The position numbers and the translations under genes are program-made. This document shows, piece by piece, positions 44,769 through 52,466 of a DNA stretch of 64,000 bases. Origin of the DNA: Acidimicrobiia bacterium. GTDB lineage: Bacteria > Actinomycetota > Acidimicrobiia > Spongiisociales > Spongiisociaceae. The notes under the pieces were generated by a model, which worked only from the letters and a program-made list of their open reading frames with translations, made no database searches and was not told the origin of the DNA. The DNA lies in assembly GCA_965200835.1 (NCBI GenBank), contig OZ241390.1, positions 2,256,297 to 2,320,296 on the forward strand. The letters run 5' to 3'. The first letter of the stretch is position 1; each line of letters starts with the position of its first letter.

Positions 44769-45062
44769 AACCGCGTCGGCAAGCAGTGACGGGGGCCGGA
44801 CCGCGGGGCGCCTTAGGAGCCGGAACCTGGTGCCACTGATTCTGCGCCCTGATCAGCTGTTGGCTACATTTTCCTTGCGCTGAAGCTTCGCCGGGGCCGA
44901 GAAAAGCGATACTGTGATCACTCTCACATGGTAGAGTCAGCTGGTGATTCTAGCTTTGCCAGCGGCTGATGGAACGGTGACATTACGTTGTGAAAGTAGG
45001 TTGCTTCCTTTGGAGGGGGCATTACGAGGGCCAGTATTGCTGGAAGTACGGAGCCTCCTACT

Positions 45063-46981
45063 GTGGGTGGTCTGAGTAAGTTATCTGGCCTCATATCGTT
45101 GCTTGTAGCAGTTGTCGTTGCTTACGGCTTCTCGGTCCCGCTTTTCAGCCTCTCTCCCCTTCAGGCAAAGAGCGCTGGTTCTTTTGACTTAGCCGTTTCT
45201 TACTCTTCGAGGTGTCCGAACGGCGGCCGAAGCTGACTTGCCTGATGTTGTCGGTAGCTACTGGGATGTCAATGAGGACTCAGTTCATTATTCAAGCATC
45301 TCGACTCTCACCAGCCTCGGTGTGTTTCGGGATACTGGGTGTGGGAACGACCGGTTTTGTCCCGAAGAGCCGCTTCTACGTTGGGTGATGGCTGTTTGGT
45401 TAATTCGGATGCTCTATGAGGAGCCTTCGGATGCTGGTAATACTTTCTACGATGTAGATGATTGGGAATGGTGGGCAGGGCAGGTGGTTCGTCTTGGTGA
45501 GGTGGGTGTAACTTCGGGTTGTAGCGCCGATCCTCCGTACTTTTGTCCTGACTATGCGGTCACTCGTGCTCAGATGGCTACGTTTCTGACTCGCGCATTC
45601 CGGCTCGATCCGGTAGCTTCTAGTGGGTTCGCTGACGTTGACCTAACGATGCACACGCTGACGGCATCGGTGCGTTGGCCGCTTCGGGTGTCACTGCCGG
45701 ATGTCGGACTGATCCTCCCAGGTTCTGTCCCAACCAGGCCGTGACTCGTGCTCAGATGGCTACGTTTCTGGCACAGGTCCTCAACCTCTCACCCATAGCC
45801 GACCAAGACCACGGTCGGGATAGTGCTCCTGACGACATTGTTGCTTACGGTGAGGTTAATGGGCGGATAGCCGCTGGTCTTTATCACTCTTGTGCCATCG
45901 GTCTCGACGACACGATAACCTGTTGGGGTTCTGATTATTCTGGTAAGACAGATACTCCTGTCGGTAAGTATAAGTAGGTTTCGGCCGGTGTTAGTCATTC
46001 GTGCGCTATCGACTTTGACGACACGATAACCTGTTGGGGTTTGATAGCTCTGGTGAGACAGATGCTCCTGTCGGTAAGTATAAGTAGGTTTCGGCCGGTG
46101 TTAGTCATTCGTGTGCTATCGGTTTTGACGACACGATAACCTGTTGGGGTTCTGACCATAATCTTGATGTTGATATTGGTGTTGGGGCCCTTGATGCTCC
46201 CCACGGTAAGTTTAGGCAGATAGTCACTTATAACCTTCATTCCTGTGCAGTCACCTTGGGTGGAACGATCCGATACTGGGGCAACAGATTTCGTGCTCGG
46301 GATGGTAAATATCGGCAGGTAACCGTCGGGAACGGGCATGCGTGTGCGATCACTCTGAGCGATACGATCGTCTGCTGGGGCGCGGACCGCTATGGTCAGC
46401 TTGAGGCTCCTGACGGTACGTTTGTGCAGATAGCCACTGGTGAGCATCATTCGTGTGCTATCACTGTAAAAGATGCGTTTGTCTGTTGGGGCCGTAACCG
46501 TTATGGCGAGACTAATGCCCCAGGCAGTGAACCCATAAGCAGTGTTCCTACGGTGACACTATTCGACATTACTGATGAACAAGACCGTGATCTACGTTCA
46601 TATTTGGACGGTGATAAGCATTTGATGCTGTGGTTCTTCGCACCGTGGTGACCGTCTTGTCGGGCTATGGCGCCCGTTGTTGAGCAGTTTGCTCAACAGT
46701 ACTTGAGTGAGGTGAAGGTTATCGTGGTTGGCAGCCAAGCTAGTTTGGAACGTGTTAAGACCGGTCTTGACGACCTCGACCTCGGCGTTGACAGCATTCC
46801 CGTATGGGACTCCGGAAACACTTTGTGGGGTATCTGGCCTCCAGCCAACAACCACCCACAGTTTGGCTCCTTTAGTAACAACTCCCGCTATGTGGTGTTT
46901 CGGCCCGATGGCTCTCTTCTGGACGGCGGCGTCTGGAACTGCCCAAGCTGCTCATCTCCTCCTTGGACACCCGAAGGGTAG
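45063..46981 (+). pseudogene. Decayed gene for a protein with a signal peptide, three SLH domains, an RCC1-like beta-propeller repeat array and a TlpA-like thioredoxin-fold domain
   Basis: Signal peptide 'LSKLSGLISLLVAVVVAYG..LQA'. SLH motifs '..AVTRAQMATFL..'. About six 37-aa repeats 'G(K/T)(Y/F)xQ(V/I)..GxxHSCAI..DxTIxCWG'. Redoxin 'WFFAPW[TGA]PSC'. There are at least three frame changes, two in-frame TAGs (45975-77 and 46085-87) and one in-frame TGA (46649-51). Confidence 0.6.
45868..46097 (+). repeat. Near-identical 110/111-bp tandem direct repeat, about two copies, inside the RCC1 array. Each copy ends in '..GGTAAGTATAAGTAG'.
   Basis: Copies at 45868-45977 and 45978-46087. They differ by a few substitutions and a 1-nt deletion. 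Both carry TAG where the repeat consensus has CAG (Gln). Confidence 0.7.
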
Positions 46982-47237
46982 CTTTAGCAATATGATGCGT
47001 GTGGTAGCAGTTTTGAACACATTTGTTTGGGGCTACTTTGTGTGGGGATACTGGTTGGTTGGCGTGTTGGTGTTCACGACAGGCATCTGTAGGGTTAACC
47101 ACGATCTGGCTCTTGGGTTTATCCGTAGAGTATGGCAAATTCAGTTTCATAAACAAGGTTCCGCGGGATAGGCTGGAGTCCTTAGAGGAACCGGCCTAGG
47201 TGGCTTTACATAAGCGAAATGGGAAATAGGGGTAGTT

Positions 47238-47876
47238 GTGATAGCGCGGACAAAAGTCTTGTTACTGGTAGTTGGGGCCGCCTCTGTGGTAGTTGGATTG
47301 GCTATTTGTTCCGGATCCTGACCGGCCGGACGAGGAGCCTGATGTTGAACCGAGAGCTATAATATATTCCGGAGTCGGAGGAACCAGATTCCCCGGATGT
47401 TGTCGTTCCAGAGCCAGAGGAACCTGACCCCCCGGTGGAGGTTGACAGGCCGGACCTCGAGGTTGATTATGTCCAGGTAGCCGCCGGTCACTAGCATGAG
47501 TGTGCGGTCACCTCAGGCGGGTACATTGAGTGCTGGGGCGGCGACGAGTACGGGGAGGTGTCGGGGGCGCCAACCGACCGCGGTTATATCCAGGTCTCCC
47601 CAGGGGCCGGGCATGAGTGTGCGGTCACCGCCGACGGGTACATTGAGTGCTGGGGCTATGACTACTACGGGCAGGTGTCGGGGGCGCCGACGGGTGGCGG
47701 TGATATTCAAGTCTCAGCCGGTTGGGAGCATGTATGTGCGATCAGATCAGGCGACGAGTACATTGAGTGCTGGGGCAGCGACAGGTGGTAGTGGCGCAGC
47801 TGGATATCTTGAGGGGTTCAACTGCGGCGTTGTGTCGGATTGGGGGTTTTCGTGTGTGATTACAGGCAATCCTTAG
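47238..47876 (+). pseudogene. Second decayed RCC1-repeat protein with a lipoprotein-type signal and an Asp/Glu/Pro-rich linker
   Basis: 'VIARTKVLLLVVGAASVVVGLAICSGS'. 'EPDPPVEVDRPDLEVD' linker. Repeats 'GxxHECAVTxxGYIECWGxDxYGQVSGAP'. Frameshifts and an in-frame TAG at 47492-94. Confidence 0.5.
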
Positions 47877-48777
47877 GTTGCGGGGTTGCCGGTCGGATGT
47901 GATTCGGGTGTGTTCGGCCGTGAAGGGTGGTGGGGTGTGCCGATCGTCTCTCTGGAGTTCTCCTGAGGTGGTTCAGGTAGTTCATGTTGGCGTTTGGGCC
48001 GTTGACGGTTGTGTGATAGCTTTTGGGAGCGAGCGCCAGGTCGCCATGGTGAACAACCTTTGAGTGTTCGTAGTTTTTGTTTTCACGTCGGTTGCGGTGC
48101 AGCGCGTAACCGTCGGGTCGATTCAGACAGAAGTAGTAGGTCTGTCTTCCAGTTAGGGCGAGCCCTGGCGCCCGTCATGGGAATGGGGCGGCCACGCAGC
48201 CGATGTGCGTCTTGGGATACACACCTCATAGAGAGTCAGGTGCTCGGCCGGCCGTGGGTACGCCATTGAGTGCACCCGCTGGCGGGGCGCCTGGCCACCG
48301 CCGCGAGTCGCGATCTTCGTCTCGTGCGCTCGAACAGCACACGTTTTGGGTAGCGGCCCTCAGTCGGTGTGGAGCCAGACGTTGCCACAAGCCGGTGATC
48401 AGATTCGACCACGAATGGTGTGGCTGGCGGAATGTAGACCACGTAACCCATATGATCGAACACCGAGCTACTGCTTGTCGGCTCCAGTTTGGGTGCCGTC
48501 GAAGACCCAGTCGGTTGAGACCAGGATCAGCTTCGCACCGACTTGTTCGCTGCCTTCGCGAGCACCCGGAAGCGCACCGGCAGAAGTCCTTTCAAGACTC
48601 ACGCTAGCCTCCGGGGCATCTGCCATCAGACTTGTCACGGTGCCGCTTCAATCCAATCACATGATCTTGACCGCGTCTGAGGTCGCTGAGAGGCCAGCGT
48701 CAGCCGGTATTTACGGTGCCTGCCGTAGAAGGAGAATCTTTGGAGATTGCTCGGCTGAAGTAGTCAGGAGACTAAGC

Positions 48778-49059
48778 ATGATCTCGGTTGATCTATCTAC
48801 AGTCCGTTGGCTATTGCCGGTTGTGGCGCTTGCTGTTGTTGCCCTAATCGGCTGCGGCGCCGACCCCGAACCGCCCGCGGCCACCGACACCGCAGAGCAA
48901 GAACCCATGTACGAGGCTGCCGACATGCCAGGGGAACAACCCGAAGCCACGGACACATCCGAAGAAGAAGCCGCTTCAACCGTGGACACTCCCAACACCG
49001 CCGACGGCGCATATATGCAGGTTTCGTCCAGGTTATGGTCCGGCCCGTTATTATGGTGA
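48778..49059 (+). CDS. small acidic lipoprotein (hypothetical)
   Basis: AGGAG Shine-Dalgarno 8 nt upstream of the ATG. Signal peptide plus lipobox 'VVALIGCG'. Asp/Glu/Thr-rich mature part. Confidence 0.45.
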   Translation: MISVDLSTVRWLLPVVALAVVALIGCGADPEPPAATDTAEQEPMYEAADMPGEQPEATDTSEEEAASTVDTPNTADGAYMQVSSRLWSGPLLW

Positions 49060-49219
49060 TAGTAACTATATGTATGCGGCGGTCGGTACGGGTGCGGGTG
49101 ATGGTACTTTGGCACAGTGGAAGTTTGTTGCATTGTAGTTGATGATGACTTTGATATTGAGGTGTTTGTTCCTTATAATCATGGTTCTGCACGGGTTATG
49201 TATAGGATTCGGTCTTTGA

Positions 49220-49816
49220 ATGATATTGGTGGTTGGGATGAGCGGCGGTGTTCGGATGTTGGAGCAGGTTAAACTGTCGGGGTGGTCTCGTTTGGGGGAT
49301 TCTTTATATGTTGATGGTAGTGAGTCGGTGCCTCGGTCTTTGGTGATTCAGGTTCACTATTCGGACTCGCAGTATGCGGAGGGGTTTCCGGTTGATCCTC
49401 TTTATCGAATGATGGGTGTGGATGCCGTCAGGATACGGTGTTCTTCCTGTGGTGGTGAGGATGAGGAGCCTGTGGATGAGGAGCCTCCGTCTCGGCCGCG
49501 GAATATGAGGCTGGTGCGGCAGGACAGTCCCCGCTCGGGGTATAGGTATCAGTATGTTATTAGTGTTGACCCGCCGGCCGATAGTGGTGGTGGTCCGGTG
49601 ACGGGTTATAGGTTTACGTTTGCCCGTGCTGGGCGTGGTGGTTCTTTTGTTAGGAGTGTCCCTAGGATTATTCTCCTTACGAAGTCAGCGACTAGATATA
49701 CCGTTTCGTTTTCGGCTGTTAATGAGTTTGGTACTAGTGATCCGATTACGCCGGCGTTTTACTACGCCTCGGTCTGTGACGGAACCGTCCGTGCCGACAC
49801 CTGGTCGACCGCTTAA
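49220..49816 (+). CDS. fibronectin type-III domain protein, N-terminal part
   Basis: FN3 signature 'PSRPRNMRLV..GYRYQYVISVDPP..VTGYRFTF..TRYTVSFSAVNEFGTSDP'. Overlaps the next ORF in another frame. This may be a frameshifted single gene. Confidence 0.45.
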   Translation: MILVVGMSGGVRMLEQVKLSGWSRLGDSLYVDGSESVPRSLVIQVHYSDSQYAEGFPVDPLYRMMGVDAVRIRCSSCGGEDEEPVDEEPPSRPRNMRLVRQDSPRSGYRYQYVISVDPPADSGGGPVTGYRFTFARAGRGGSFVRSVPRIILLTKSATRYTVSFSAVNEFGTSDPITPAFYYASVCDGTVRADTWSTA

Positions 49817-50837
49817 TCTTAAGGTTACGGTTGGGATTATGGATGCTGAAAGTCGGCGACTGCCTGTTACGTTGACTTGGAGTCGGCCATCTGGGTCCGG
49901 TGGTCGTGATGTTGATCACTATAAATTGCAGATTGTGGATGCGGGCGGTAGACGAGTGCAGGAGTGGACACCGAGGGAGATTAGGCATCCGGCCTATTTG
50001 TATCCGGATGTGTCAGGTAGTTATAAGGTTACAGTGTCGGCAGTGAACCGCGGCAGTGGCCGCAGTGTGATTGGTCCGTCTGTGAGTAAGCAGTTTACTC
50101 TGTCGGCCTGTCCGTATGATAAGCGGCTACTGACATCGAGGAATAGGCAGGTATCTGCTCGAAGGTTCCCTGTGGTTGATGTGAGTCGGCAGGTTTATAT
50201 TCAGGCTCGTCAAAAAAGCGGAGAGCTGCATGACCGTAAATTGATTCGTGGTGCTATAGGCAGCTGGGGTTGTGCCTGGGTTGGCTATGGGGCGGAGCTT
50301 AACAATAGAAGCTTTGTGAGGGATGACGCACTTGTTACTGGGCGTGCAATCGTCAAAGACGATGCGACAGTGTCGAATGGTGCTCTTGTTTCGGGTAATG
50401 CAGAGGTCAGCGGTCGAGCACAAGTTTATCAGGGCGCCAGGATAATAGGCAACAATCTTGGCAGGGATAAAGCGAGAGTTTACGATGATGCTCGAGTGTA
50501 TTGCAATGCCAAGATATCAGAAAATGCTACAGTTTACGGTCATGCTGAAGTGTATGGAGCAGCACAGGTTTATGGCGACGCGGATGTTCGCGGGGACGCT
50601 AGGGTGTATGGTAATGCTAAGGTTTACGGTGCCTTGACTATTGTAGAAGGTAACGCCCAGGTCTATGGGAACGCCGAAGTTTATGGTACGGACACAGAAA
50701 GTGTGAGGCGTTTGGAGACCGAGACTCGTATACGGGGCAATGCTGAAGGTCACGGAGAGGCTGTGGTCTTTGGCAAAGAGACGATCATTGAAGGCAGCGC
50801 CAAAGTTTATGGCGACGCGAGGCTTGGTAGCAGATAA
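49620..50837 (+). CDS. Protein with a second FN3 domain followed by about 25 tandem hexapeptide 'A-x-V-Y-G-x' repeats (beta-solenoid-like). The real start is probably an internal GTG near 49776, or the gene is frameshift-fused to the preceding ORF.
   Basis: 'PGRPLNLKVTV..LTWSRPSGSGGRDVDHYKLQI..SYKVTVSAVNRGSGRS' FN3, then 'GNAEVSGRAQVYQGARIIGN..ARVYGNAKVYGALTIVEGNAQVYGNAEVYG'. Confidence 0.5.
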   Translation: MPVLGVVVLLLGVSLGLFSLRSQRLDIPFRFRLLMSLVLVIRLRRRFTTPRSVTEPSVPTPGRPLNLKVTVGIMDAESRRLPVTLTWSRPSGSGGRDVDHYKLQIVDAGGRRVQEWTPREIRHPAYLYPDVSGSYKVTVSAVNRGSGRSVIGPSVSKQFTLSACPYDKRLLTSRNRQVSARRFPVVDVSRQVYIQARQKSGELHDRKLIRGAIGSWGCAWVGYGAELNNRSFVRDDALVTGRAIVKDDATVSNGALVSGNAEVSGRAQVYQGARIIGNNLGRDKARVYDDARVYCNAKISENATVYGHAEVYGAAQVYGDADVRGDARVYGNAKVYGALTIVEGNAQVYGNAEVYGTDTESVRRLETETRIRGNAEGHGEAVVFGKETIIEGSAKVYGDARLGSR

Positions 50838-50891
50838 GAACCCCTTGTTATCGATGAGCCTCATTATGATGGCAAACAGGAATTCGAATGG

Positions 50892-51345
50892 ATGGCCAAG
50901 GAAGCATACAACGTGGCCTACCGTCAAGCTAGGGACTATTTATCGGATTGCTTCCCCAAATTGTGGGCAACTATGAAGCAGGAAGATAAACATGACACAA
51001 TCCGGGTCGGCTTGGGTGAACCGTGGTCAAATACACGCGCACTCCCTGAGGAGATTCTCAAAATGGCGTGTGATAATTTCGAGTTCGCCGAAACGGATCA
51101 GGGAAATGGTGAACCCATGGATGGCCAGTTTTGGTTTTGTGGCACCATTTCTGAAAGCGGGTAAGCTCACAGGATACTTGAAGCTGATAAGGGACGGGAT
51201 CATACTCGCCTACGACGCAAAGAACGTGTGGGACAACATGAACCTGCTCACAGCCTTGACAGAAGCAAAAGGTATGATGATGAAGAACACCTTCGAACAA
51301 TGCCGTAAGGCATCAGAGGCATCAGAGCCATTCAAAGACTGCTAA
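50892..51345 (+). CDS. Hypothetical low-GC ORF(s): two overlapping frames (50892..51164 and 50992..51345) with no recognisable domain
   Basis: AT-rich codon usage typical of the island. No homology recognised. Possibly one frameshifted gene. Confidence 0.25.
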
Positions 51346-52466
51346 ACAGGCAGGCATGAAGAACACAGAAATCCGACACTACAACACGCCGATCATACTA
51401 TTCACCATAGTTTAGGCAAACCATCACCCAATGGCAGTTGACATTAGGCAGCCGGGCACCCTTGCCCTAGACGAAAACAGCGCCTACCGCGGTTACCACA
51501 AAGCAGACCGGGAAGACTGACACGCCGAACCTGCCATCGTCAAAGCGTCCGGCGACAGAAAGCAGACACCTGGCAATCCCTCTAGACAACACCATCACCC
51601 TGCTTAGGGAAAGAATGCTTCGCGGGTGGTAAGGGGTGGCCGAGCGGTGCACCACCGGCTATCCGATCACCCCGCAACCGATGGTCAGGACCAATGACGG
51701 CGGATCAGCCAGGCCGTCCGCCACTCGGGGTAGGTGGCGGAAGTGACGATGGTGGGTACCTTCGCTAGCCCGGAGGCAACAATCACCGCGCTGATCATAT
51801 AGCTGAAACGGGGAGCATCGCGCCGGGGACGGGTTGAGAATAAACGGGAGGCGGATTTCGGGTGCCGATCACTCACAGCTTCTGGTTCTGATGCCCGTCT
51901 CCGGAACTCGCCCCGCTGAGAACAGTGACTCGGCTCCGGCTATGGCAGACGGAACGGCGAAGATGATCAGATGGTCCGTGCCGTGACGGACGTCACACCC
52001 GAGGGAACGAACGCCCGATCACCTGGGACGATTCCCGCCATCACCGGCCCTGACGGAGGGGCAGATCCTTCAGAGTCGGTCTCACCGTCCTGGGAACCGG
52101 CTGGAACTTCGAGCTTGATCACTTCGGAGTTGGTATCGGAGAAGGTGGCTACCGAACGCAGGTTTGCCTCTCCTCACGAAGCGGAGGATCTGTGCCGCCG
52201 TCGCCAGGCTCGGTGAGACGGTTGTGCATGTTTGGCTGACCTCGTTGCGATCCGAGCGGTGACGCGGAGGCTATCCGGGGTAGTTCAGGGGGTTCCGAAC
52301 CTCCGGCAATGGGGTGCACACCCCGGAACGCCCCGCTGGTTGTCCCTTGGCAGACGCATTTCCGGCGGATACATTGGCCTTACGACCGGATCCGGCGCTG
52401 CGCGATGCCGGTGCGGGTCGTGGATGGCGAGCATTGGCTGCGCGGCGGGAGGCAGGAGGTGTCCTC

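What the first reader, a model, noticed from the sequence alone, without database searches (positions are those of the whole stretch)
49220..50837. FN3-FN3 protein ending in a long 'A-x-V-Y-G-x' hexapeptide array: an uncharacterised beta-solenoid-like repeat
Two fibronectin type-III domains are followed by about 25 perfectly phased six-residue repeats. Two FN3 domains are clearly recognisable even though the first is in a different frame. The array reads 'GRAQVY QGARII .. ARVY DDARVY CNAKIS ENATVY GHAEVY GAAQVY GDADVR GDARVY GNAKVY ..', with a conserved small residue (A), a hydrophobic residue (V or I) and Y-G. The periodicity matches left-handed beta-helix or solenoid hexapeptides. The register is unusual: G sits at i+2 rather than i+1, with an invariant aromatic Tyr. 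I do not recognise this as a described family. It may be an adhesin or a polymerising surface module. Either the gene is frameshifted between the FN3 domains, or two overlapping genes exist.
Basis: seen in the sequence. Interest (0 to 1): 0.5.

Follow-up and report, generated by a model that had tools for sequence, protein, structure and literature searches.

The report
Decayed FN3–YdcK-solenoid surface protein gene
The two FN3 domains and the six-residue repeat array are real, but the repeat is the already catalogued YdcK-type beta-solenoid, and the gene is a dead copy, broken by several frameshifts and a premature stop, of a secreted protein family found in sponge-symbiont Acidimicrobiia.

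Summary
Window 49220-50837 (+) has two FN3-like domains in different frames, followed by about 26 hexapeptide units. "Perfectly phased" and "invariant Tyr" are overstated: 19 units share one phase and Tyr occurs in 11 of 26.

The repeat is not undescribed. It passes Pfam PF18836 (YdcK beta-solenoid repeat) at 43.3 bits against a cut-off of 30. It matches the YdcK crystal structures 2F9C/2PIG, phage families phrog_7964 and phrog_5070, and more than 2,000 database proteins.

A full HMMER search found intact homologues, some in sponge-associated Acidimicrobiia. Their layout is signal peptide, N-domain, FN3 x2-3, YdcK head plus solenoid, C-terminal domain. Aligning them to the window needs at least four frameshifts (~49137, ~49222-49234, ~49757-49784, ~51096) and read-through of the TAA at 50835.

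The finding is therefore the best-preserved part of a ~2.5 kb pseudogene (about 48.8-51.35 kb). It lies in a 7 kb low-GC island of gene debris that replaced trkH-trkA. Four near-identical assembled copies, counting the window's own genome, show the same lesions. This is ordinary gene decay in a known family, so interest is low. Side observations: a TGA at a CxxC cysteine and a strand-specific C-to-T codon bias.

The parts
48778..48855 (+). Probable original start: lipoprotein-type signal peptide MISVDLSTVRWLLPVVALAVVALIGC (frame 1), followed by an acidic, Pro-rich linker up to about 49000
   Evidence: Read directly from the translation. Intact homologues start with signal peptides. This segment itself has no alignable homologue, so assigning it to this gene is an inference.
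49004..49135 (+). N-terminal domain, fragment 1 (frame 2): ..GYGPARYYGDSNYMYAAVGTGAGDGTLAQWKF..
   Evidence: BLASTP to P0247 residues 70-107 (E=2e-6) and to P0132 residues 86-114. Frameshift-aware alignment.
49140..49230 (+). N-terminal domain, fragment 2 (frame 1): ..DIEVFVPYNHGSARVMYRIRSLN.. It is bounded by frameshifts near 49137 and near 49222-49234.
   Evidence: BLASTP to P0132 residues 124-142, P0165 residues 93-111 and P0151. Frameshift-aware alignment places the frameshifts.
49235..49483 (+). N-terminal domain, fragment 3 (frame 2), ending ..MGVDAVRIRC, followed by the acidic linker GGEDEEPVDEEPP.
   Evidence: ORF1 residues 14-171 align to P0132 residues 154-301 and P0136 residues 157-317.
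49484..49760 (+). FN3-1 (frame 2)
   Evidence: Pfam fn3 14.7 bits, below the cut-off. Titin FN3 E=0.06. 29% identical to FN3-2, E=4e-5. Aligns to strong fn3 domains of P0132 and P0165.
49757..49760 (+). TTTT run, the likeliest site of the +1 frameshift between FN3-1 and FN3-2. Removing one T gives a single open 538-codon frame from 49220 to 50834.
   Evidence: The frameshift-aware alignment places the shift between about 49757 and 49784. The exact base is an inference.
49782..50110 (+). FN3-2 (frame 0)
   Evidence: Pfam fn3 21.4 bits, E=2.9e-4. AlphaFold2 gives a 7-strand sandwich with pLDDT 60-76. Foldseek matches 10FnIII and monobodies at TM ~0.6.
50111..50306 (+). Low-confidence linker plus a degenerate YdcK-family 'head' (..VYIQARQ..GAIGSW..AWV..) that leads into the solenoid
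   Evidence: pLDDT below 35. Aligns to the P0165 head KYVVALRDF..GDWGGE..NLS..SW. The canonical head motif is present in 66 of 124 solenoid homologues.
50307..50834 (+). YdcK-type hexapeptide beta-solenoid of about 26 units
50835..50837 (+). Premature TAA stop
   Evidence: The intact homologue g6716 on L022 aligns straight through it..YDGKQEF.. against ..YDGKQEY...
50838..51345 (+). Remnant of the C-terminal domain: frame 0 to about 51096, then frame 1 to the stop at 51343-51345
   Evidence: Frameshift-aware alignment of g6716 (270 aa) to 50406-51318: 94 of 265 identical, one stop and one frameshift near 51096.
44800..51900 (.). Low-GC island (50-59% GC against ~65% in the host) made up of broken SLH, RCC1, thioredoxin-like and FN3-solenoid genes, all on the + strand. 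It replaces trkH and most of trkA.
   Evidence: Composition. Fragmented ORFs. Relatives carry trkH and trkA between proB and the M23 peptidase, and none of the island's pieces.
51917..52225 (-). trkA C-terminal remnant that marks the right edge of the island
   Evidence: tblastn of the L009 TrkA protein, residues 340-442.

Best explanation
The region is the 3' two-thirds of a pseudogene of about 2.5 kb (roughly 48.8-51.35 kb, + strand).

Its ancestor encoded an exported protein laid out as follows: signal peptide (here lipoprotein-type), a conserved N-terminal domain of about 150 aa with no Pfam model, two FN3 domains, a YdcK-family head plus hexapeptide beta-solenoid (Pfam PF18836), and a C-terminal helical domain.

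Intact proteins of this layout occur in other metagenomic contigs. One related cluster includes a RefSeq protein of the sponge-associated Candidatus Poriferisocius. In those proteins the signal peptide puts the protein outside the cytoplasm. I infer that the FN3 modules act as spacers and that the rigid solenoid with its C-terminal domain forms the distal, interacting part. That would make it a 'eukaryotic-like' surface or secreted protein of the kind enriched in sponge symbionts. This functional reading is inference, not shown.

The copy in this window is dead. It is cut by at least four frameshifts and one nonsense codon, and it sits in a 7 kb island of similarly broken genes. The 405-codon ORF that holds the repeat array is simply the longest surviving open stretch.
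For: Repeat identity:
- PF18836 43.3 bits against a cut-off of 30.
- YdcK structures 2f9c/2pig, E=7e-9.
- 2,152 homologues among the scored candidates.
- phrog_7964 at 1e-43 and phrog_5070 at 4e-39.
- 61 phage records.

Family and architecture:
- phmmer of ORF1 against 1.84 billion representatives gives 230 hits.
- P0132 and P0165 have signal peptide, N-domain, FN3 x3 or x2, head plus solenoid.
- 10 of 149 representatives carry five or more YdcK-type hexads at the C-terminal end.
- RefSeq WP_419846513.1, 'fibronectin type III domain-containing protein [Candidatus Poriferisocius sp.]', belongs to one such cluster.

Pseudogene status:
- Pieces in frames 2, 1, 2 and 0 match successive parts of P0132 and P0247 colinearly.
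- Frameshift-aware alignment of P0165 to 49034-50654 (161 of 474 identical) needs three frameshifts.
- g6716 aligns to 50406-51318 (94 of 265 identical) through the TAA at 50835, with one further frameshift.

Not an assembly error:
- Three further assemblies are 99.95-100% identical to the window with no gaps.
- Flanking genes such as leuS (1034 aa) are intact.

Context:
- proB is 76% identical to Candidatus Spongiisociaceae MAGs.
- The island is absent from relatives, which carry trkH-trkA at that place.
- The neighbouring RCC1 gene has an in-frame TAG in both tandem copies plus a 1-bp indel.
- Contig L022 carries an intact, syntenic cluster: SLH protein, P0132, solenoid gene.
- fn3 domains are enriched in sponge-symbiotic Actinobacteriota (PMC11706023).
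Against: - The 411-codon stretch 49602-50834 has no stop. Its chance probability is about 4e-10 at the local base composition. Decay of this part is therefore recent, or the part is still under selection.
- Gene callers predict a 332 aa or 348 aa product.
- A near-consensus sigma-70-like promoter lies at 49151-49179.
- No expression data could be consulted.
- The link between the signal peptide at 48778 and this gene rests on position and on analogy, not on alignment.
- The exact positions of the frameshifts are approximate.
- No function is known for any member of the family.
Confidence: 0.84

Rival explanations
1. The surviving ORF (FN3-2 plus solenoid, 332-405 aa) is still expressed from an internal start and works as a stand-alone, probably cytoplasmic, solenoid protein. 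This would resemble the short head-plus-solenoid proteins encoded in the early regions of temperate phages.
For: - The frame is open for 411 codons, P about 4e-10 by chance.
- Gene callers annotate it.
- The solenoid core is well conserved and is modelled with pLDDT 70-88.
- Stand-alone homologues of 230-370 aa are common. In phage phiST1 the homologue lies among early genes.
Against: - It has lost the signal peptide, the N-domain and the C-terminal domain that intact relatives have.
- Its head motif is degenerate.
- The ATG start at 49839 would begin inside FN3-2.
- Every other gene in the island is broken.
Confidence: 0.1
2. The frameshifts and the stop are sequencing or assembly errors, and the gene is intact in the living cell.
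For: - One shift maps to a short T4 homopolymer.
- One supporting contig is labelled '2x', which may mean low coverage.
Against: - Four assembled copies from at least three datasets (the window's genome, ENA ERZ25068762, Logan SRR33960550 and SRR33960552) agree. There are no gaps over 5.8-11.9 kb and only 0-3 substitutions.
- The errors would have to cluster in this island while the flanking genes stay intact.
- A nonsense codon is not a typical long-read error.
Confidence: 0.03
3. Programmed ribosomal frameshifting, or two deliberately overlapping genes, produce ORF1 and ORF2 as functional products.
For: ORF1 and ORF2 overlap by about 200 nt, and each is open.
Against: - The required shift is +1, and there is no recognisable slippery site or stimulatory stop at the junction.
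- The PGRPLN motif shows that frame 0 was already the coding frame upstream of the ORF1 stop.
- Three further frameshifts and a nonsense codon in the same ancestral gene cannot all be programmed.
- Intact homologues are single ORFs.
Confidence: 0.02
4. One reading: a previously undescribed hexapeptide solenoid family.
For: - The register differs from that of classical hexapeptide transferases.
- PF00132 and Bactofilin are both below their cut-offs.
Against: - PF18836 is passed.
- The family has a solved structure.
- There are PHROG families and thousands of homologues.
Confidence: 0.01

Closest known systems
YdcK family / Pfam PF18836 'YdcK beta solenoid repeat' (E. coli and Salmonella YdcK; PDB 2F9C, 2PIG)
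   Same: - It shares the G-[ND]-A-x-V-[Yx] hexad.
- It passes the Pfam cut-off.
   Different: - It scores 44 bits against the NCBIfam YdcK equivalog cut-off of 350, so it is not a YdcK orthologue.
- Here the solenoid is the C-terminal module of an exported multidomain protein, not a stand-alone protein of about 330 aa.
- This copy is a pseudogene.
- The function of YdcK itself is unknown.
Exported FN3-array proteins of sponge-associated Acidimicrobiia (e.g. P0132, P0165; RefSeq WP_419846513.1 of Candidatus Poriferisocius)
   Same: The domain order is the same: N-domain, FN3 x n, YdcK head plus solenoid, C-terminal domain. The sequences are about 34% identical and colinear.
   Different: Those proteins are intact single ORFs. 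The window copy has at least four frameshifts and one nonsense codon. It has two FN3 domains where P0132 has three.
Phage/prophage head-plus-solenoid proteins (phrog_7964, phrog_5070; annotated 'polymer-forming cytoskeletal protein', 'putative acyltransferase' or hypothetical)
   Same: - The solenoid repeat is the same, with E values of 1e-43 and 4e-39.
- Identity to proteins of Streptococcus, Xanthomonas, Vibrio and Liberibacter phages is 36-55%.
   Different: - The phage proteins are short (about 230-370 aa) and have no signal peptide or FN3.
- They carry a well conserved LYRIxAL..GDLGGYIE..NLS..CWV head.
- In phiST1 the gene lies among early genes.
Bactofilin (PF04519)
   Same: - It is a beta-helix with a triangular core and about 18 residues per turn.
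- There is a weak profile match.
- The AlphaFold2 model behaves as right-handed, as bactofilin is known to be (the handedness of bactofilin is from my own knowledge).
   Different: - It scores 15.4 bits against a cut-off of 27.9.
- There is no evidence of polymerisation.
Left-handed beta-helix hexapeptide acyltransferases (PF00132; LpxA, LpxD, GlmU)
   Same: - The six-residue period is the same, with a small residue and an aliphatic residue four positions apart.
   Different: - PF00132 scores 21.7 bits against a cut-off of 27.
- All NCBIfam transferase models score far below their cut-offs.
- Gly is shifted to i+2.

Membership tests
Pfam PF18836 B_solenoid_ydck | Whole-protein score at or above the gathering cut-off (30 bits) | tested here: met
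   43.3 bits, E=1.9e-11. The precomputed annotation of P0001 also lists PF18836.
NCBIfam NF040481 YdcK_fam (equivalog) | Score at or above 350 bits, meaning full-length orthology to YdcK | tested here: not met
   44.3 bits, and only over profile positions 90-260.
YdcK-type head-plus-solenoid proteins | Conserved head motif LYRIxAL..G(D)LGG[YW]IE..NLS..[CA]WV directly upstream of the array | tested here: inconclusive
   The motif is found in 66 of 124 homologues. The window has only a degenerate version (VYIQARQ..GAIGSW..AWV), which aligns to the P0165 head. My own head HMM matches only the hexads.
Hexapeptide transferases (PF00132 / LpxA-like enzymes) | Pfam Hexapep at or above 27 bits, or any NCBIfam transferase model at its cut-off | tested here: not met
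   21.7 bits. The NCBIfam transferase hits score 9-25 bits against cut-offs of 150-440.
Hexapeptide transferases (PF00132 / LpxA-like enzymes) | Left-handed helix, trimer interface and catalytic residues | tested here: inconclusive
   [not shown]
Bactofilin (PF04519) | Score at or above 27.9 bits | tested here: not met
   15.4 bits, E=0.023.
Fibronectin type III (PF00041) | Score at or above 25 bits; seven-strand beta-sandwich | tested here: inconclusive
   The sequence scores are 21.4 bits (FN3-2) and 14.7 bits (FN3-1), both below the cut-off. The fold test is met for FN3-2: 7 strands and Foldseek TM ~0.6 to 10FnIII. Both domains align to domains scoring 75-132 bits in homologues. The FN3-1 model was unusable, pLDDT 34.
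Exported N-domain / FN3 / YdcK-solenoid proteins of sponge-associated Acidimicrobiia | Colinear similarity across the N-domain, FN3 domains, head, solenoid and C-terminal domain | tested here: met
   P0165: 161 of 474 identical over 49034-50654. g6716: 94 of 265 identical over 50406-51318.
Exported N-domain / FN3 / YdcK-solenoid proteins of sponge-associated Acidimicrobiia | Single uninterrupted ORF with an N-terminal signal peptide (a functional member) | tested here: not met
   Four frameshifts and one in-frame TAA are needed. The candidate signal peptide at 48778 is in yet another frame.

The most novel reading that the evidence does not exclude
The intact family, of which this is a dead copy, could be an unstudied class of sponge-symbiont surface or secreted factors. 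In that reading a YdcK-type solenoid is displayed on an FN3 stalk. The solenoid may be right-handed and bactofilin-like rather than a left-handed LpxA-like helix, and it would mediate host contact or self-assembly. Separately, the surviving 405-codon ORF might still be expressed. A further possibility is that the island's C-to-T codon bias reflects a targeted, strand-specific deamination process rather than ordinary decay.
Probability: 0.1. Interest if true: 0.4.

Novelty: new member of a known kind. Interest (0 to 1): 0.12.

Why it matters
It matters little for this locus. It shows that an apparently novel repeat is a catalogued one (PF18836), and that the 'two overlapping genes' are fragments of one decayed gene.

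It is useful as an annotation correction. The called 198 aa, 332/348 aa, 90 aa and 79 aa 'genes' should be merged into one pseudogene.

It is also a small example of gene loss in a sponge symbiont: eukaryotic-like surface protein genes are decaying, and trkH-trkA has been lost.

The wider YdcK-solenoid family, in bacteria and in phages, still has no known function. That is the only real open question this locus touches.

Tried and rejected
1. The word-indexed search with a fused ORF1 plus FN3-2 query found only self and three weak FN3 proteins. That wrongly suggested an orphan. The exhaustive HMMER search overturned it.

2. I suspected that 'RVMYRIRSLNDIG' (~49190) and 51088-51240 were extra YdcK 'head' remnants (E 0.25-0.6). 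This was rejected. They align to the N-domain and to the C-terminal domain of intact homologues.

3. AlphaFold2 on ORF1 alone gave pLDDT 34 and was unusable.

4. Pfam scans of the N-domain, both the window reconstruction and three homologues, found nothing. The 'golvesin_C-like' label rests only on a faint precomputed hit on a neighbouring L022 gene, so I dropped it as a claim.

5. Rfam on the whole window found only tRNAs.

6. The promoter and terminator scan gave one 11/12 promoter-like site at 49151-49179. It lies inside the ancestral coding sequence and is probably fortuitous.

7. I looked for a mobile-element signature of the island, meaning terminal repeats or a tRNA target. Nothing convincing turned up.

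8. The low-GC stretch at 36-38 kb is ordinary mreD / PBP2 / rodA, not a second island.

9. The afdb50 fold library was unavailable. BFVD returned only FN3 matches.

10. Literature searches on the function of YdcK and of the phage solenoid proteins found nothing functional.
Full report
**1. Observation**

The two ORFs exist as reported: 49220..49816 (198 aa, frame 2) and 49620..50837 (405 aa, frame 0).

The C-terminal 176 residues of the second ORF (50307-50834) form about 26 hexapeptide-like units.
- Nineteen consecutive units (50301-50642) share one phase.
- After those come a 7-residue unit, two hexads, a 17-residue degenerate turn and another 7-residue unit.
- The small residue (A/S) is present in 23 of 26 units, the aliphatic residue in 24, Gly in 17 and Tyr in only 11.
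- So 'about 25 repeats' is correct, while 'perfectly phased' and 'invariant Tyr' are overstated.
- The register remark is correct: Gly sits at i+2 relative to the classical hexapeptide.

Both FN3 domains are real but divergent.
- They score 21.4 and 14.7 bits against a Pfam cut-off of 25.
- They resemble each other (E=4e-5) and titin FN3 domains.
- The AlphaFold2 model of FN3-2 is a 7-strand sandwich with pLDDT 60-76. Foldseek places it on fibronectin 10FnIII and monobodies at TM ~0.6.

**2. The repeat is a described family**

- The array passes Pfam PF18836, 'YdcK beta solenoid repeat', at 43.3 bits against a cut-off of 30, E=1.9e-11.
- Its best solved relative is YdcK, 2F9C/2PIG, E=7e-9.
- A database search returned 2,152 significant proteins among the candidates scored, nearly all annotated PF18836.
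- It matches phage families phrog_7964 (1e-43) and phrog_5070 (4e-39).
- It has tblastn matches in 61 phage records, annotated as hypothetical, 'polymer-forming cytoskeletal protein' or 'putative acyltransferase'. In Streptococcus phage phiST1 the gene sits among early genes.
- It is not a YdcK orthologue (44 bits against 350). It is also below the cut-offs for Hexapep and Bactofilin.

**3. Genomic context**

- The window is about 65% GC. Its proB gene is 76% identical to MAGs of Candidatus Spongiisociaceae and other sponge-associated Acidimicrobiia.
- Between proB and the M23-peptidase/nadD genes, the two relatives read in detail (L009, L005) carry trkH and trkA on the minus strand, and at least 13 relatives show the same proB-to-M23 spacing of about 3 kb.
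- The window instead has a ~7 kb island of 50-59% GC. Only the last ~100 codons of trkA remain, at 51917-52225 on the minus strand.
- None of the island's coding pieces occurs at the relatives' loci.
- The island contains only fragments: SLH repeats in two frames, RCC1 repeats, a thioredoxin-like piece and a second RCC1 stretch.
- The RCC1 tandem copies both carry an in-frame TAG where the repeat consensus has Gln. They also differ by a 1-bp indel.

**4. The decisive result**

A word-indexed search with the FN3 part found nothing close. An exhaustive phmmer search of ORF1 against 1.84 billion representatives found 230 homologues.

Several of these are intact proteins of 520-750 aa, laid out as signal peptide, a conserved ~150 aa N-domain, then two or three strong fn3 domains.
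- In P0132 and P0165 these are followed by a YdcK head, a hexapeptide solenoid and a C-terminal tail.
- Ten of 149 representatives carry five or more YdcK-type hexads at the C-terminal end.
- One such cluster includes RefSeq WP_419846513.1, 'fibronectin type III domain-containing protein [Candidatus Poriferisocius sp.]'.
- P0132 lies on contig L022, between a 1058 aa SLH/fn3 protein and a 270 aa solenoid protein. The SLH protein matches the left end of the window's island in two frames. The island is therefore a decayed version of a conserved surface-protein cluster.

**5. Pseudogene anatomy**

Window fragments in frames 2, 1, 2 and 0 match successive segments of P0132, P0247 and P0165. I wrote a frameshift-aware protein-to-DNA alignment and ran it on the intact homologues.
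- P0165 (659 aa, two FN3 domains) aligns to 49034-50654 with 161 of 474 identities. This works only with frameshifts near 49137, 49222 and 49784.
- P0247 gives the same first two shifts.
- The third shift most plausibly lies in the T4 run at 49757-49760. Deleting one T yields an open 538-codon frame.
- The PGRPLN motif, which parallels the PSRPRN motif of FN3-1, shows that frame 0 was already the coding frame upstream of the ORF1 stop.
- The 270 aa L022 protein aligns to 50406-51318 with 94 of 265 identities. The alignment runs straight through the TAA at 50835 (..YDGKQEF.. against ..YDGKQEY..) and needs one more frameshift near 51096.
- A lipoprotein-type signal peptide (MISVDLSTVRWLLPVVALAVVALIGC, 48778-48855) lies upstream in frame 1. 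It is the likely original start, but this is an inference, because that segment has no alignable homologue.
- The ancestral gene therefore spanned roughly 48.8-51.35 kb. It is now interrupted at least five times.

**6. Not an artefact**

- Three other assemblies (ENA ERZ25068762, Logan SRR33960550 and SRR33960552) are 99.95-100% identical to the window over 5.8-11.9 kb, with no gaps.
- Flanking genes are intact.
- Programmed frameshifting is implausible. The required shift is +1 with no recognisable signal, and several independent lesions affect the same gene.

**7. Mechanism**

Shown:
- the domain order;
- export signals in the intact homologues;
- the solenoid and FN3 folds.

Inferred:
- In intact members the FN3 modules act as spacers that hold the rigid solenoid and the C-terminal domain away from the cell surface.
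- That would make these proteins 'eukaryotic-like' surface or secreted proteins. fn3 domains are significantly enriched in sponge-symbiotic Actinobacteriota (PMC11706023).

The copy in this window lacks a contiguous frame, its signal peptide and its C-terminal domain, so it most likely makes no functional product.

The main caveat is that 49602-50834 is still open for 411 codons, about 4e-10 by chance. Inactivation is therefore recent, or a truncated product persists; I give that rival about 0.1.

**8. Verdict**

This is a new, dead member of known kinds: a PF18836 solenoid within an FN3-array exported protein family. Interest is low (0.12).

**9. Side observations worth recording**

- A TGA falls exactly at the first Cys of a W-C-x-x-C thioredoxin motif (46649).
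- Third codon positions in the island look like C-to-T replacement with G untouched: T 0.40-0.43 and C 0.10-0.14, against C 0.41 and T 0.10 in host genes. Intact homologues elsewhere show T3 of only 0.20-0.26. This is unexplained.

Noticed in passing
window 46649-46651 (within 46088-46978, + strand): A TGA sits exactly at the first Cys of a thioredoxin-fold motif (..LWFFAPW[TGA]PSCRAMAP..). It joins the RCC1 ORF 46088-46648 and the 109-codon ORF 46652-46978 in one frame. It is either a selenocysteine codon (UxxC) or a nonsense hit in a decaying gene. The downstream RNA fold is not exceptional (z=-1.5) and there is no Rfam hit. The sel genes cannot be checked within 64 kb.
   Followed up: partly
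window 45000-51400, + strand: The composition is strand-asymmetric, with T>A and G>C. At third codon positions of ORF1 and FN3-2 the values are T 0.40-0.43, C 0.10-0.14, G 0.37-0.39 and A 0.04-0.13. Host genes have C 0.41, G 0.40, T 0.10 and A 0.08. It looks as if C3 had been converted to T3 while G3 was untouched. First and second positions are much less affected. Intact homologues elsewhere have T3 of 0.20-0.26. The TAG at 45975 (from CAG) fits C>T; the ancestral codon of the TAA at 50835 could not be determined. The cause was not established. Candidates are leading-strand or non-template-strand deamination, or the donor's codon usage.
   Followed up: partly
window 44769-52313; remnant at 51917-52225 (-): trkH and most of trkA (potassium uptake) are missing. 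The two relatives read in detail carry them between proB and the M23 peptidase, and at least 13 relatives have matching spacing there. Only the last ~100 codons of trkA remain.
   Followed up: yes
window 45124-46648 and 47495-47788: Broken SLH-domain and RCC1-repeat genes lie here. The 110-bp RCC1 tandem copies (45906-46155) both carry an in-frame TAG and differ by a 1-bp indel. A second RCC1 stretch with 117-bp repeats has host-like codon usage. The SLH part is homologous to the 1058 aa SLH/fn3 protein on L022.
   Followed up: partly
[not shown]
   Followed up: partly
window 49151-49179 (+): A near-consensus sigma-70-like promoter (TTGATA-17-TATAAT, 11 of 12) lies 41 nt upstream of the ORF1 ATG. 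It is inside the ancestral coding sequence of the N-domain. It is probably a by-product of the T-rich composition.
   Followed up: no
L021 (Streptococcus phage phiST1) 4827-5789; 61 phage records: YdcK-type head-plus-solenoid genes are common in temperate phages. In phiST1 the gene lies in the early region, between the regulatory genes and the ERF recombinase, not among structural genes. Their function is unknown, and no literature was found.
   Followed up: partly
window 50892-51164 and about 51106-51345; L001-L003 gene calls: The two small genes that public gene callers predict downstream of the solenoid gene (90 aa and 79 aa) are fragments of the ancestral C-terminal domain, not independent genes.
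   Followed up: yes
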